This document shows, piece after piece, positions 12,853 through 16,377 of a DNA stretch of 64,000 nt. Below the pieces are notes generated by a model that saw only the letters and a program-made list of their open reading frames with translations, did no database searches and had not been told where the DNA came from. The DNA is taken from NCBI GenBank assembly GCA_947631745.1, contig CANRMM010000002.1:3364-67363 (forward strand), given 5' to 3'. The position numbers were made by a program, and so were the translations under genes. Source of the stretch: an uncultured Clostridia bacterium. Its GTDB lineage: Bacteria > Bacillota > Clostridia > TANB77 > CAG-508. Numbering within the stretch: the first letter of the stretch is position 1; the number at the start of each line of letters is the position of its first letter.

Positions 12853-13131
12853 TTAGGTGAATACACATTATACATATTTTTATGTTTGTCAAATTAATTA
12901 TAAAGTGGATTATTAGGGGCATAAAAGAGAAAAACCTAATTTAATAGGACAAGCGTAATTTTAGAATAGCAAAGTTCTTTTAGAAATGAATATAATTGTT
13001 AGAAATTGTAAATTAAACAAATAATAAAAAAAATTGTAATTTTACAAAGGAGTAAAAAATTATTTAGGAAACAATATTGTAAGAAACTGGATATTATGGT
13101 AAAATGTAAACTAATGAAAATGGAGGTAAAT

Positions 13132-14367
13132 ATGTTGGAAAAAATCCCAAATCATTTATTAGAATTAATTAAAGAAGGAGAAAAAATATCAATAGAATTT
13201 AAAGAGGCTGGTGTAGCATTACCGGAAGACTTATTTGAAACTATATGTGCATTTCTAAATAGAAATGGAGGACATATATTTTTAGGAGTAAATAACAATG
13301 GAAAAATAACAGGAGTTTCAAAAGAACATATAGAAATGATGAAAAAAGATTTTGCTAATTTATGTAATAATCCACAAAAAATAAATCCCACGGTATATTT
13401 AAAAATTGATGAATATGAAATAGATAATTTGAGAATATTACATATATATGTGCATGAAAGTTCAGATGTTCATAAAACTAAAAATAGAATCTTTGATAGA
13501 AACGAAGATGGTGACTATGATATTACTCAAAATACGACTTTAGTTGCTAATATGTATTTGAGAAAGCAAAAAACTTATACTGAAAATAAGATATATCGAT
13601 ATGTAACGATAAATGATTTGAGAAAAGACCTGATAGAGAGAGCAAGGCAAATGGCCGTAAATAGAGCAGGAAATCATATATGGGAAACAATGACAGACTT
13701 AGAAATGCTAAAAAGTGCATCCTTATATGAAATAAACTATGAAACAGGAGAAGAAGGATTTACGCTTGCAGCGATACTATTATTAGGAAAAGATGATGTT
13801 ATACAATCTGTCTTACCACATCATAAGACAGATGCAATTTTAAGAGTAGAAAATGTAGATAGATATGATGACAGAGATGATATAAGAACGAATTTAATAG
13901 AAAGTTATGATAGATTAGTTGCATTTATAAGGAAACATTTAAGTGAAAAATTCTATATTGAAAATGATCAAAGAATAAATGTTAGAGATAAAATTGCAAG
14001 AGAAATTTGTGCTAATATACTTATTCATAGAGAGTATTCTAATCCATTTCCAGCAAAATTAATAATAGACAAACATTATATTAGAACTGAGAATGCCAAT
14101 AAGCCTAAAATGATAGGATGTATAAATATTACTGATTATGTTCCTTATCCTAAAAATCCTAAAATAGCAAAGTTTTTTAAAGAAATTGGTTTAGCAGACG
14201 AGTTAGGATCTGGAGTAAGAAATGTTGCCAAATATACTAAAATATATTCAGGTGGAATACCAATATTTAAAGAAGATGATATTTTTAAAACGGAAATATT
14301 AATATCAAGTGAAAAAAATAAAGAAATAGATATAACCGGCGATAAACCGGCGATAAACCGGCGATAA
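13132..14367 (+). CDS. AlbA_2 (Schlafen-like DNA-binding) + RecG-C-like (HATPase_c_4) regulator, truncated before its C-terminal winged helix
   Basis: ISIEFKEA...LNRNGGHIFLGVNNNGKITGV (AlbA_2 pattern); PKNPKIAKFFKEIGLADELGSGVRNV (HATPase_c_4 pattern); ends inside an 11-bp tandem repeat. Confidence 0.7.
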   Translation: MLEKIPNHLLELIKEGEKISIEFKEAGVALPEDLFETICAFLNRNGGHIFLGVNNNGKITGVSKEHIEMMKKDFANLCNNPQKINPTVYLKIDEYEIDNLRILHIYVHESSDVHKTKNRIFDRNEDGDYDITQNTTLVANMYLRKQKTYTENKIYRYVTINDLRKDLIERARQMAVNRAGNHIWETMTDLEMLKSASLYEINYETGEEGFTLAAILLLGKDDVIQSVLPHHKTDAILRVENVDRYDDRDDIRTNLIESYDRLVAFIRKHLSEKFYIENDQRINVRDKIAREICANILIHREYSNPFPAKLIIDKHYIRTENANKPKMIGCINITDYVPYPKNPKIAKFFKEIGLADELGSGVRNVAKYTKIYSGGIPIFKEDDIFKTEILISSEKNKEIDITGDKPAINRR

Positions 14368-14378
14368 ACCGGCGATAA
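14335..14378 (+). repeat. tandem repeat, 4 perfect copies of ACCGGCGATAA (11 bp)
   Basis: Read directly: accggcgataa x4, G+C-rich in an A+T-rich gene; stop codon arises in copy 3. Confidence 0.95.
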
Positions 14379-14563
14379 CTGCTAAAGACAAAATTATAGA
14401 ATATGTAGTAACTAATACATATATAACAACAAGCATAGCGACAGATTTGCTAAAATTAAAGAGTAAATCATGGGTAAGAAGTATTTTGAATAAAATGGCA
14501 GAAGAAGGAATTTTAATTATAGAAGGTGCTAATAGAAATAGGAAGTATAAATTAAACAAATAG
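14357..14563 (+). pseudogene. detached out-of-frame C-terminal winged-helix segment of the preceding gene
   Basis: Other frame is open from 14357: TGDKPAITAKDKIIEYVVTNTYITTSIATDLLKLKSKSWVRSILNKMAEEGILIIEGANRNRKYKLNK*; no start codon or SD of its own. Confidence 0.65.
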
Positions 14564-14871: not shown

Positions 14872-16377
14872 CTAAATATTATATATATCCTTTTTTGCAA
14901 AATGACGAATAGCAATACCTAACAGTGCTATCTCATATATTAAACAAATGCATACTGAAAAAGGAAGTGTTAATACATTAATATCAGGTATTCGACCAAA
15001 TAAATAGATACTAAAATCCCAATTATTTGTTATAAAGTATTTAGCGATAGGAGTAAGTGCAGAAATTTCAGACCATTGAGCGATAACAGTACTGCAAATA
15101 AAAAAGATTATTAAAGTAAGAATCATTGTCATAACAGAGTGATTATTCATAACACTCATAAATATGCAAAATGTAACAATTATAAAATACATTGGCAATT
15201 TGCATAATAACAAAAGTAGTAAATAAACAAATAAATTTAAAGTAAATACGGAATTAGAAGTATAGTTATAACCAATGTAACCAATACTATAGCTATCAAA
15301 TCCAAAGATGATTCCACCAACAATATATTGTACTAAAATCATAAACAAAGTAGTTATTATAATTGTTATTACACAAGCTAAGATTTTTGAAATTAAAATT
15401 TGACTGCGTTTATGAGGCTTGGTAAGTAAATTCTTAATTGTTCCTTTATTTTTTTCTTCTGCTATGCTAGTGCAAGCTATATAAATTGCTATTGCCACAA
15501 TTACAATATCAAAATGTTTAAATGATCTTATCAAAGAAATTCTGGCATCAACTTTATTATGAGAGAGTACAGTAATTGCACTATCTGAAATATCATAATT
15601 AATTTTATTTTCCAAGGCATATTTATTTAAAGCAACATTTAATTTACAATTTTTTATTGTTTTATTATAAATGCTATCAGATTTATTGGATTTTAGACAA
15701 GATTCTAAAAGATATTGTTTCGATCTCCAATTACTTATGTAATCATTGAAAATATCATCATTAAAAGGAATATCATATTTTAATCGATATTCATATATTT
15801 CTATTTCAATATTCAAACTTTTCTTTTCATCAGAAGTAATAGAAGGGGATTCGGTTTTTTGACGTAAATTTTTAATTTTTAATGCAACAAATTCTTTCCA
15901 ATCATCATTATTTAAAGCTTGTACATATTGTTTATATATTTTTTGGGCTTCTTCATAATCACTTTTTTGAATATTAGAATTAGGATTTATTTCATAATCA
16001 ATTATAGTAGTCAAATTAGATTTTATATCTTGATAAAAATTTGTGGGAAAATCCTGAACATCATGACTGGTATTCTCTTCACCTAAAGCATATTTTTGCC
16101 AAGAATTTTCTGAATAACTGTTATATAGTTTACCAAATTCAATAGACAATTTTTGGGAAACATAAAACTTATCATTTTTATCCATGTTTTCGAAGGCTCG
16201 CTCGAGAGCATCAATATTAAAATCCAAAGGTCTAAAAAAAATTTTATTTTGATCAGGATTAGCATAATTAAATAAAGCAATGATAATAATGATGATGAGT
16301 AGCAATAAATAAAAACTTTTTTTCTTAAAAATTTTAATCAGTTCATTTTCAATTAACTTAATCAATGTCTGTACCAC
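14872..16377 (-). CDS. ABC-2 type exporter permease with large extracytoplasmic domain
   Basis: N-terminal TM, about 270-aa soluble loop, then EEKNKGTIKNLLTKPHKRSQIL and 5 TM segments; GTG start overlaps ATPase stop. Confidence 0.75.
   Translation of the reverse strand: MVQTLIKLIENELIKIFKKKSFYLLLLIIIIIIALFNYANPDQNKIFFRPLDFNIDALERAFENMDKNDKFYVSQKLSIEFGKLYNSYSENSWQKYALGEENTSHDVQDFPTNFYQDIKSNLTTIIDYEINPNSNIQKSDYEEAQKIYKQYVQALNNDDWKEFVALKIKNLRQKTESPSITSDEKKSLNIEIEIYEYRLKYDIPFNDDIFNDYISNWRSKQYLLESCLKSNKSDSIYNKTIKNCKLNVALNKYALENKINYDISDSAITVLSHNKVDARISLIRSFKHFDIVIVAIAIYIACTSIAEEKNKGTIKNLLTKPHKRSQILISKILACVITIIITTLFMILVQYIVGGIIFGFDSYSIGYIGYNYTSNSVFTLNLFVYLLLLLLCKLPMYFIIVTFCIFMSVMNNHSVMTMILTLIIFFICSTVIAQWSEISALTPIAKYFITNNWDFSIYLFGRIPDINVLTLPFSVCICLIYEIALLGIAIRHFAKKDIYNI

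What the first reader, a model, noticed from the sequence alone, without database searches (positions are those of the whole stretch)
14335..14563. An 11-bp x4 tandem repeat uncouples the winged-helix tail of an AlbA_2/Schlafen-like regulator
ACCGGCGATAA occurs four times in perfect tandem (14335-14378) and is G+C-rich within an A+T-rich gene. Read in the gene's frame it gives TGDKPAINRR and then a TAA created in copy 3. Downstream, a different frame holds 62 more codons with no start or SD of their own (ITAKDKIIEYVVTNTYITTSIATDLLKLKSKSWVRSILNKMAEEGILIIEGANRNRKYKLNK*). That segment has the look of the winged-helix domain that usually terminates this protein family. With exactly two repeat copies the frames join seamlessly (…ITGDKPAITAKDK…). 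One copy, or three or more copies, all terminate early. So a 22-bp tandem expansion has detached the DNA-binding tail. Because the unit length is not a multiple of 3, slippage could toggle the fusion, as in a contingency locus. The gene family is frequently associated with defence or regulatory islands.
Basis: partly seen in the sequence, partly recalled or inferred. Interest (0 to 1): 0.65.

Follow-up and report, generated by a model that had tools for sequence, protein, structure and literature searches.

The report
Repeat expansion splits Schlafen-like regulator gene
A 22-base expansion of an 11-base repeat in the flexible linker of a Schlafen-like ATPase gene has cut off its DNA-binding tail, and the same break recurs in at least five other gene lineages, so this linker is a natural weak point where the gene family repeatedly splits in two.

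Summary
ACCGGCGATAA occurs four times in perfect tandem at 14335-14378. The SLFN_AlbA_2 + GHKL-ATPase gene (13132-14367) stops at a TAA in unit 3. An intact 61-68-codon winged-helix tail follows in the +1 frame with no usable start codon.

The nearest intact relative (89% identical) has exactly two units and a fused tail, so the window allele is a +22-bp expansion. Only two units give the 469-aa protein.

New context:
- The linker between the ATPase and the tail is a tandem repeat in 30 of 76 relatives, usually with 12-bp units that keep the frame.
- The CCGGCGATAA(A) type alternates 11 and 10 bp (7 aa, TGDKPAI). It is the type in which every split allele was found; the other types were not searched by DNA pattern.
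- Six gene lineages carry '...INRR*' alleles (five of them '...PAINRR*').
- One species shows 2, 3 and 5 units. There the tail has its own ATG and both halves stay conserved.

Rapid phase variation is not shown. The 4-unit allele is identical in two further records: a second public assembly and a second sequencing sample. A sister lineage is uniform at about 500x depth. From four units, return to ON needs exactly -22 bp or -1 bp.

Verdict: a real, stable domain-uncoupling allele at a slippage hot spot, and a new variant of repeat-driven frameshifting.

The parts
13122..13126 (+). GGAGG ribosome-binding site 5 nt before the likely true start ATG at 13132
   Evidence: Read directly from the sequence. 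Homologues begin at the aligned M(L/S)EKIPN.
13132..14367 (+). Truncated core ORF of 411 aa plus TAA. It holds a SLFN_AlbA_2 domain and a GHKL-type ATPase (HATPase_c_4), the 'Schlatpase' supradomain, and ends ...ITGDKPAINRR*.
   Evidence: PF04326 E=3.8e-19. PF13749 scores 24.1 bits, just under its cut-off of 26. 5958 homologues have E<=0.001. The exact protein is present in 3 public contigs.
14335..14378 (+). Linker array of four perfect 11-bp units, ACCGGCGATAA. The core motif is CCGGCGATAA(A), which is read in two frames as TGDK and PAI.
   Evidence: G+C is 54.5% against 26.8% for the gene. The k-mer evidence supports exactly 4 units.
14365..14367 (+). TAA stop created in unit 3. Any run of three 11-bp units puts a TAA in all three frames.
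   Evidence: The same '...INRR*' ending is found in L001, L002, L089, L093, L099, L104 and L106.
14357..14563 (+). Detached tail frame (+1), open for 68 codons and ending in TAG. The winged-helix domain is about 14378-14560. There is no canonical start codon before 14447.
   Evidence: The tail is 75% identical to the in-frame tail of L006, with dN/dS 0.18. The AF2 model has pLDDT 92.5 with an H-H-H-beta-beta layout. Foldseek hits are winged-helix proteins.

Best explanation
**What the gene is.** It belongs to the very large prokaryotic family that joins a Schlafen-type AlbA_2 domain, a GHKL ATPase and a short C-terminal winged helix.

**How the linker is built.** In one branch of the family the linker before the winged helix is made of a 10/11-bp unit, CCGGCGATAA(A). 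When 11- and 10-bp units alternate, the 21-bp period encodes TGDKPAI and keeps the frame.

**What happened here.** Slipped-strand mispairing has left four 11-bp units in a row, where the nearest intact relative has two. The extra 22 bp shift the frame by +1, and unit 3 supplies a TAA.

**Consequence.** The cell makes a 411-aa core without its DNA-binding tail. The tail remains intact but silent, because it has no start codon.

**Status of the allele.** It is stably inherited; it is not a rapidly flipping switch. It can revert only by losing exactly two units or one A.

**Shown.** The array, the frames, the two-unit natural counterpart, the fold of the tail, recurrence of the same break in other lineages, and unit-number polymorphism in another species.

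**Inferred.** Slippage as the mechanism, that the truncated core still works here, and that the tail is not translated.
For: **Array and frames.**

**Natural counterpart.** L006 has two units and a fused tail.

**Age of the break.** Between the window and L006, dN/dS is 0.07 for the core and 0.18 for the tail, at dS of about 0.7. The tail was therefore under selection for most of that time and the break is recent relative to that divergence.

**Recurrence.** Six gene lineages have '...INRR*' split alleles (five end '...PAINRR*'):
- the window;
- the L001 group;
- L002;
- L093 and L099;
- L089 and L106;
- L104.
In each of them at least one member keeps a full-length, open winged-helix tail; only partial tails are available for L002 and L099, which run off their contigs.

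**Contrast with 12-bp linkers.** None of the 76 anchored genome loci had a truncated C-terminus, apart from one cut by a contig end. They include 30 with linker peptide repeats, mostly of 4 aa (12 bp).

**Polymorphism within one species.** The arrays have 2, 3, 5 and 5' units, while the 64-aa tail and the neighbouring genes are the same.

**Truncated cores stay selected.** Within that all-split clade the core has dN/dS of 0.04-0.14, with dS up to 0.13.

**Stability.** The allele is identical in X1-X4, X5 and L114. The L093 lineage shows a 500: 1000 depth ratio against flanks of about 490-570 in one run. Its 4-unit allele is the one present in eight runs from eight studies, seven of which show the 1:2 word-depth signature.

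**No start codon for the tail.**
Against: **Limits of the read data.** Only k=31 contigs were available, not reads. Minor alleles with 3 or 5 units cannot be seen directly and can be excluded only above roughly 10%.

**Alternative origin.** The ancestral state could have been the 11-10-11-10 form seen in P0003 and P0006. In that case one extra A, and not 22 bp, would be the event. Both routes restore the frame.

**Unknown function here.** Whether the truncated core is functional in this organism is not known. The selection evidence comes from another species, in which the tail has its own ATG.

**Intact tails without a start.** Four of the six split lineages lack a start codon for the tail yet keep it intact. 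That is more than simple recency easily explains.
Confidence: 0.68

Rival explanations
1. **True contingency (phase-variable) locus.** The array changes unit number at a high rate within populations. Cells would then keep switching between a tail-fused form (n=2, or 11/10 alternation) and a tail-less form of the protein, for example to escape a cost or to change the regulation of a toxic or defence-like effector.
For: - The unit length is not a multiple of 3 and the array lies inside an ORF.
- Unit number differs among strains of one species: 2, 3 and 5.
- L093 and L099 have 4 and 3 units, and L089 and L106 have 4 and 3.
- Tails stay intact in split alleles.
- Loss of function of the family member TrlG is selectable in Photorhabdus at about 2.6e-6 (bioRxiv 10.1101/2020.06.02.129163). 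An on/off advantage is therefore plausible.
Against: - There is only one ON state. From n=4 neither +1 nor -1 unit restores the frame.
- Four units make a short tract.
- No variant contigs appear in the window's sample (summed word depth about 37x over its four runs), in the second sample X5 or in a second assembly.
- The L093 lineage gives an exact 1:2 k-mer ratio at about 500x, and its 4-unit allele is the one present in eight runs from eight studies, seven of which show the 1:2 word-depth signature, dated 2019-2025.
- No ON allele was found in either of the pairs L093/L099 and L089/L106.
Confidence: 0.14
2. **Plain decaying pseudogene.** The frameshift inactivated a dispensable or costly accessory gene. 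Both halves are now drifting, and the tail looks intact only because the event is very recent.
For: - The tail has no start codon.
- The gene is accessory and not syntenic with its closest relative. L006 sits between hpf and phage or plasmid-like genes.
- The downstream frame of L106 diverges from a winged helix after about 18 residues, which suggests decay after a split.
- Loss-of-function mutations of TrlG are readily selected.
Against: - The 411-codon core is fully open and identical in three public contigs.
- In an all-split clade the core shows dN/dS of 0.04-0.14.
- Schlatpase proteins without any C-terminal domain are common natural forms (bioRxiv 10.64898/2026.05.29.728809).
- All six split lineages keep a tail that is intact as far as it is sequenced.
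Confidence: 0.2
3. **The tail is still made from the split allele.** One route would be reinitiation after the TAA. Another would be ribosome hopping between identical codons of neighbouring units; a 22-nt hop from GCG-ATA at 14350-14355 to GCG-ATA at 14372-14377 would recreate the two-unit protein. On this reading the array tunes the ratio of fused, separate or tail-less products.
For: **Coupled two-gene forms.**
- In the L001 group and in L002 the tail starts with ATG.
- In two alleles (L113, L108) the core's TGA overlaps that ATG as ATGA.
- The tail there is identical in protein across strains whose flanks differ by 4-5%.

**Hopping geometry.**
- In the five split lineages built of 11-bp units only, a hop of a whole number of units (11 or 22 nt) would restore the tail frame. 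This follows from the tail frames.
- The stop is preceded by the codons CGG CGA. These are G+C-rich, and I take them to be rare in this A+T-rich genome; codon usage was not measured.
- The RNA around the array folds better than shuffled sequence, with z = -3.15.
Against: - In the window there is no ATG, GTG or TTG before the middle of the domain and no Shine-Dalgarno sequence.
- The frame shift that would be needed differs between lineages (+1, +2, or 0 with a stop), so no single slippery-site mechanism fits.
- No classical slippery heptamer is present.
- There is no expression data.
Confidence: 0.07
4. **Assembly or sequencing artefact** in a short repeat.
For: The source is a metagenome assembly at about 9x depth per run.
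Against: - Independent k=31 contigs of 5 runs from 2 samples contain the 37-base pure-period piece, with a 2:1 word-depth ratio.
- A second assembly is identical.
- The same architecture is found in several unrelated assemblies.
Confidence: 0.02

Closest known systems
'Schlatpase' proteins: SLFN_AlbA_2 + GHKL ATPase, mostly with a short C-terminal HTH. The supradomain was described with SLFN-pAgo (bioRxiv 10.64898/2026.05.29.728809). Photorhabdus TrlG is a member (bioRxiv 10.1101/2020.06.02.129163).
   Same: - The domain order is the same: PF04326, then PF13749, then a winged helix.
- The CAFLN motif lies at the place of the family's SAFAN motif.
- The size fits: the two-unit form would be 469 aa.
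- The preprint reports that over 90% of C-terminal tails in the family are HTH and that tail-less forms are common.
   Different: - No member of the HTH-tailed group has a demonstrated mechanism.
- tRNA cleavage and ATP-driven tetramerisation were shown only for the Argonaute fusion.
- I found no description of the repeat linker or its frameshifts in the two papers read. A term search of the paper library on the two Pfam domain names returned 169 papers; the 20 titles and abstracts shown did not mention them.
Simple-sequence contingency loci of host-adapted bacteria, with frameshifting repeats of 1-7 nt in Neisseria, Haemophilus, Helicobacter and Campylobacter (from my own knowledge)
   Same: A tandem repeat inside an ORF has a unit length that is not divisible by 3. 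Changes in unit number alter the reading frame, and unit number is polymorphic between strains.
   Different: - The unit is 11 bp long and there are only 4 copies.
- There is one ON state and many OFF states.
- No heterogeneity within a population was detected.
- The switch removes one domain and leaves the rest of the protein in place.
Phase-variable truncation of Type I restriction-modification HsdS subunits by repeats between the two target-recognition domains, for example NgoAV of N. gonorrhoeae (from my own knowledge)
   Same: A repeat in an inter-domain region produces a shortened protein that is still functional but lacks its C-terminal DNA-recognition module.
   Different: The protein family and the repeat type are different. 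A function for the truncated product is inferred here, not shown.
Gene fission into translationally coupled pairs with an ATGA overlap
   Same: In the L001-group species the core and the 64-aa winged-helix tail are separate ORFs. Two of its alleles have an ATGA overlap, and both halves are conserved.
   Different: The window's tail has no start codon. At best the window is an early or failed stage of such a fission.

Membership tests
Schlatpase-HTH family (SLFN_AlbA_2 + GHKL ATPase + C-terminal HTH) | SLFN_AlbA_2 domain (PF04326) above the curated threshold | tested here: met
   69.8 bits against a cut-off of 25.3, E=3.8e-19, residues 29-141 of the 423-aa ORF. A profile of the family hits SLFN5, SLFN11, SLFN14 and the RecG-related domain 2kyy in the PDB.
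Schlatpase-HTH family (SLFN_AlbA_2 + GHKL ATPase + C-terminal HTH) | GHKL-type ATPase domain (PF13749, HATPase_c_4) | tested here: inconclusive
   24.1 bits, just under the cut-off of 26. Most close homologues carry a precomputed PF13749 hit, and the ELGSG motif region is invariant.
Schlatpase-HTH family (SLFN_AlbA_2 + GHKL ATPase + C-terminal HTH) | C-terminal helix-turn-helix domain fused in frame | tested here: not met
   The domain is present and folds as a winged helix, but it lies in the +1 frame behind a TAA. The window encodes a tail-less derivative of a family member.
Simple-sequence contingency (phase-variable) locus | Tandem repeat inside the coding sequence with a unit length not divisible by three | tested here: met
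   11 bp x 4 at 14335-14378.
Simple-sequence contingency (phase-variable) locus | Unit number differs between strains of one species | tested here: inconclusive
   Met in a sister species, with 2, 3 and 5 units. Not seen in the window's own lineage, where the window, sample X5 and assembly L114 are identical.
Simple-sequence contingency (phase-variable) locus | Mixed unit numbers within one population (read-level heterogeneity) | tested here: inconclusive
   Only k=31 contigs were available. Word-depth ratios fit a single 4-unit allele, both here (2.07) and in L093 at about 500x (500:1000). Raw reads were not available.
Simple-sequence contingency (phase-variable) locus | Gain or loss of one unit switches expression on or off | tested here: not met
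   Only n=2 is ON. The forms with n=3, 4 and 5 all give the same 411-aa product.
Programmed ribosomal frameshift | Conserved slippery site and a fixed shift direction across relatives | tested here: not met
   There is no X XXY YYZ heptamer, by direct reading. The tail frame relative to the core is +1, +2 or 0 in different split lineages.
Translationally coupled split gene pair | Start codon for the downstream ORF at or near the upstream stop | tested here: not met
   The window has no ATG, GTG or TTG in the tail frame before 14447. The feature is met in the L001 group and L002.

The most novel reading that the evidence does not exclude
The CCGGCGATAA(A) array may be more than a tolerated linker. 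It may be a selected joint at which Schlafen-ATPase cores shed, regain or exchange their winged-helix tails.

**Evidence consistent with this reading**
- The same 21-nt stretch is kept letter for letter in genes whose cores are only 22-27% identical.
- The tails are much more alike than the cores. For L093 the tail is 68% identical and the core 23%.
- Hybrid linkers exist: TGDKPAIN|ADKTPIN in P0001, and a contig that joins TGDK to NYTENYTE in runs X19, X22 and X26.
- Splits recur.

On this reading the family would carry a built-in diversification and fission device at the boundary between sensor and effector.
Probability: 0.2. Interest if true: 0.75.

Novelty: new variant of a known kind. Interest (0 to 1): 0.52.

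Why it matters
Schlafen-ATPase proteins number in the tens of thousands in prokaryotes. Relatives act as tRNA-cutting antiphage effectors, and one restricts growth in Photorhabdus. The role of the common HTH-tailed form is still unknown.

A natural series of alleles now exists for comparison: fused, tail-less, and split into two coupled genes. All of them arise at one repeat. This series gives a ready-made genetic dissection of what the tail does.

The locus also shows how a linker built from a unit that is read in two frames can drive gene fission. If switching proved to be fast, it would be an unusual contingency locus, with an 11-bp unit and loss of a single domain. If it is slow, it remains a clear case of a mutational hot spot shaping domain architecture across many gut bacteria.

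Tried and rejected
**Dead ends from the tools**
The window's own genome and its relatives could not be scanned.
- Raw reads could not be had. Every run was served as k=31 contigs, which break inside the array, so I used word-depth ratios as a substitute.
- A wider search for runs of this species found only the same sample.

**Searches that found nothing useful**
- NCBIfam has no family for the core.
- PADLOC gives only a weak, partial hit: Aga_SIR2-PNTD, 23 bits.
- phmmer of the core against the PDB finds nothing.
- The array pattern has no match in viral contigs.
- Four of the metagenome pattern hits (L095, L098, L101, L105) are chance matches in unrelated G+C-rich DNA.

**Ideas considered and rejected**
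- A DNA hairpin as the driver of slippage. The single-stranded DNA fold is not better than shuffles (z = -0.89).
- A classical -1 or +1 programmed frameshift. There is no slippery site, and the required shift differs between lineages.
- Other copies of the unit elsewhere in the window, as silent cassettes or binding sites. There are none.
Full report
**1. Observation**

The sequence shows ACCGGCGATAA four times without a mismatch at 14335-14378. TRF reports period 11 and score 91. The 10-mer CCGGCGATAA, allowing one mismatch, occurs only at these four places in 64 kb, against 0.4 expected. The array is 54.5% G+C in a gene of 26.8%.

The ORF that enters the array ends ...ITGDKPAINRR* at a TAA in unit 3, at 14365-14367. 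It has no ATG, GTG or TTG before 14447.

I rebuilt the gene with 0-8 units. Only two units give a full-length protein, of 469 aa. With 0 units the product is 407 aa, with 1 unit 406 aa, and with three or more units 411 aa. Removing one A at the second unit junction also restores the frame and gives 476 aa with TGDKPAI twice.

The likely true start is ATG 13132, behind GGAGG. Homologues begin there.

**2. Is the array real?**

Only k=31 contigs of public runs could be laid on the window. They break in the array, as expected for a 45-base periodic stretch. Four runs of one rabbit-gut sample and one run of another study each contain two informative pieces:
- a 34-base piece whose words occur twice in a 4-unit array;
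- a 37-base piece whose words occur once and exist only if there are at least four units.

Summed depths are 65.4 and 31.6, a ratio of 2.07, against flanks of about 37. A separate public assembly (L114, a 66.7-kb contig) has the identical gene and array. The array is therefore not an artefact, and the allele is the only one detectable in these data. Minor 3- or 5-unit alleles below roughly 10% would escape this test.

**3. What the gene is**

Pfam finds SLFN_AlbA_2 at 69.8 bits against a cut-off of 25.3. HATPase_c_4 scores 24.1 bits, just under its cut-off of 26. The family is huge: 5958 hits among the 8000 candidates scored. Full-length relatives in the alignment are 468-487 aa and end in a tail like the detached one...EGANRNRKYKLNK.

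An alignment of eleven tails gave an AlphaFold2 model with mean pLDDT 92.5 and a helix-helix-helix-strand-strand layout. Foldseek matched winged-helix DNA binders: AspA, RbkR, PKZ Z-alpha, CadC and MarR. It also matched a region of the 556-residue C. diphtheriae protein DIP2311 (3lmm), with TM 0.87 and rmsd 1.2.

A 2026 preprint names the AlbA_2 + GHKL pair the 'Schlatpase' supradomain.
- It counts 60,692 such proteins.
- It states that most have either no further domain or a short C-terminal HTH.
- In its Argonaute-fused member the Schlafen domain cuts tRNA after ATP-driven tetramerisation.

In Photorhabdus, loss of the family member TrlG lets cells grow at 36 C. This includes IS insertions near the gene's 3' end. 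Members can therefore be costly.

In the window the neighbours are two sortases, YccF and an ABC-2 exporter. PADLOC gives nothing meaningful.

**4. Origin of the break**

The closest relative found is L006, a Clostridia MAG that is 89% identical over residues 8-481. It reads ...KNKVPAINTGDKPAITSKDKIVGYLL..., with CCGGCGATAAA CCGGCGATAAC directly before the tail.

Other intact relatives (P0003, P0006) have TGDKPAITGDKPAIT, which corresponds to units of 11, 10, 11 and 10 bp. Starting from that state, a single extra A would give the window's array. I cannot exclude this second route.

Between the window and L006, dN/dS is 0.07 for 401 core codons and 0.18 for 61 tail codons, at dS of about 0.7. 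The tail was therefore constrained for most of the time since the two sequences diverged, and the break is recent relative to that divergence.

L006 sits in a different neighbourhood, after era, recO and hpf and next to plasmid or phage-like genes. The gene is accessory and mobile.

**5. The linker is a repeat throughout the family**

In 30 of 76 genome loci the segment between the ATPase and the tail holds at least three copies of a short peptide repeat. Most have a 4-aa (12-bp) unit: NYTE, VGLN, AQDK, TEQV, TPQV, SGAQ, GVES and others. None of the 76 loci is truncated, apart from one cut by a contig end.

The TGDKPAI and ADKTPIN types are different. Their 21-bp period is made of one 10/11-bp unit read in two frames: ACC GGC GAT AAA gives TGDK, and CCG GCG ATA gives PAI. 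If two 11-bp units follow each other the frame shifts. Three in a row put a TAA in every frame.

**6. Recurrence of the break**

I collected arrays from protein hits and from a metagenome scan for CCGGCGATAAACCGGCGATAA.

Six gene lineages carry alleles ending '...INRR*' (five of them '...PAINRR*'):

| Lineage | Units or spacing | Note |
|---|---|---|
| Window | 4 x 11 | |
| L001 group | 5 | |
| L002 | 4 | |
| L093 / L099 | 4 / 3 | |
| L089 / L106 | 4 / 3 | the tail of L106 looks rearranged |
| L104 | 10, 11, 11, 10, 10 ... | the TAA is in frame |

About eight lineages are in frame: L003, L006, P0002, P0003, P0006, the L091/L092/L097/L100 group, L094 and L096. In each split lineage at least one member keeps a full-length, open tail frame, apart from L002, whose tail is cut by the contig end (as is that of L099).

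The cores of these genes are only 22-27% identical to the window's core. The 21-nt stretch is nevertheless identical, and the tails are 28-68% identical. The linker-plus-tail module therefore seems to move between cores, or the unit is unusually constrained. Dual-frame reading combined with homogenisation among units could contribute to that constraint.

**7. Polymorphism and selection in one species**

Looking up the exact 64-aa tail of L001 returned seven more contigs from other samples with the same neighbouring genes. Their arrays differ:
- L113 has 2 units.
- L107 has 3 units.
- L001, L111 and L112 have 5 units.
- L108 has 5 units, with a T-to-C change that removes the TAA.

In L113 and L108 the core's TGA overlaps the tail's ATG as ATGA. 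In this species the tail always starts with ATG.

The tail DNA shows only two variable sites, both synonymous, among strains whose next 600 nt differ by 4-5%. This look-up finds identical proteins only, so it is biased. Even so, diverged strains share the protein.

The 405-codon core within this all-split clade has dN/dS of 0.04-0.14, with dS up to 0.13. In this species the split is therefore an established two-gene arrangement with both halves in use, and the array between them changes length.

**8. Is it a fast switch?**

The L093 lineage has the same 4 x 11 array and no start codon for its tail. It occurs in many chicken-gut runs.
- In a run at about 500x depth the two repeat pieces have depths of 500 and 1000, against flanks of 491 and 571.
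- The 4-unit allele, or the array end it shares, is present in eight runs from eight studies dated 2019-2025. Seven of them show the 1:2 word-depth signature; for X15 and X26 the short repeat pieces are not among the pieces listed.

This matches the window's lineage, in which the window, sample X5 and assembly L114 all carry the same allele. From four units a one-unit change stays OFF.

I conclude that the array is hypermutable over evolutionary time. A physiological contingency switch is not shown and is unlikely for this allele.

**9. Other mechanisms considered**

There is no slippery heptamer. The shift that would be needed differs among lineages (+1, +2, or 0 with a stop). A programmed frameshift is therefore unlikely.

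Hopping between identical codons of neighbouring units, or reinitiation after the stop, would work in any frame. Either could explain why tails without a start codon stay intact. The RNA around the array folds better than shuffled sequence (z = -3.15), through CCGG:CCGG pairs. There is no direct support for either mechanism, and I rate this reading low.

**10. Verdict**

The expansion and the loss of the winged helix are real, and the predicted two-unit form exists in nature. The toggle idea is weakened.

The locus is a stable domain-uncoupling allele at a slippage-prone, dual-frame linker repeat. That repeat has split this gene family repeatedly and, in at least one species, has produced a working two-gene form. 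I class it as a new variant of repeat-driven frameshifting, of moderate interest.

Two points carry the main open questions: the letter-for-letter conservation of the unit across distant cores, and the intact tails that lack a start codon.

Noticed in passing
Family-wide: loci L006-L085; examples are L031 (NYTE x4), L059 (TEQV x8), L082 (AQVE x6) and L075 (SGAQ x4): In 30 of 76 GTDB representatives of this protein family the linker between the GHKL ATPase and the C-terminal HTH is a tandem peptide repeat. The unit is mostly 4 aa (12 bp), and the unit sequence differs between subfamilies. I did not find this described in the two papers read.
   Followed up: partly
L091, L093, L094, L096 and L089 compared with window 14335-14378: The 21-nt stretch CCGGCGATAAACCGGCGATAA is identical in genes whose cores are only 22-27% identical to the window's core. 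Their tails are 28-68% identical. This suggests that the linker-plus-tail cassette is exchanged between cores, or that the DNA unit is unusually constrained.
   Followed up: partly
L093:10597 in runs X19, X22 and X26; P0001 / L003:1332-1390: Hybrid linkers exist. One contig joins the core end and TGDK of the L093-type gene to an NYTENYTE repeat. P0001 reads TGDKPAIN followed by ADKTPIN and carries the other class of tail. Both look like recombination joints inside the arrays.
   Followed up: no
L108:~800-880 and L113:~540-580: In one species a T-to-C change in unit 3 (GATAA to GACAA) removes the TAA. The core then reads through five units and ends in a TGA that overlaps the tail's ATG (ATGA). 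The 2-unit allele has the same overlap.
   Followed up: partly
L070:1377-2105: One Nitrospirota relative carries the whole linker-plus-tail module twice in tandem within one reading frame. Each module is a TEQA/TPQV repeat followed by an HTH.
   Followed up: no
window 13003-13059: A 28-bp unit (AAATTGTAAATTAAACAAAGAATAAAAA) is present twice, at 80% match, in the 375-bp A+T-rich spacer upstream of the gene (TRF score 70). It could be a promoter or operator element, or it could be chance.
   Followed up: no
window ~15597-15690, inside the ABC-2 permease gene 14872-16377 (- strand): The otherwise identical second assembly L114 differs from the window at 28 clustered positions, starting at L114:3966.
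   Followed up: no
window 14320-14440: The RNA across the array folds into nested CCGG:CCGG helices between units. The minimum free energy is -20.8 kcal/mol, with z = -3.15 against shuffles. The same stretch as single-stranded DNA is not exceptional (z = -0.89).
   Followed up: partly
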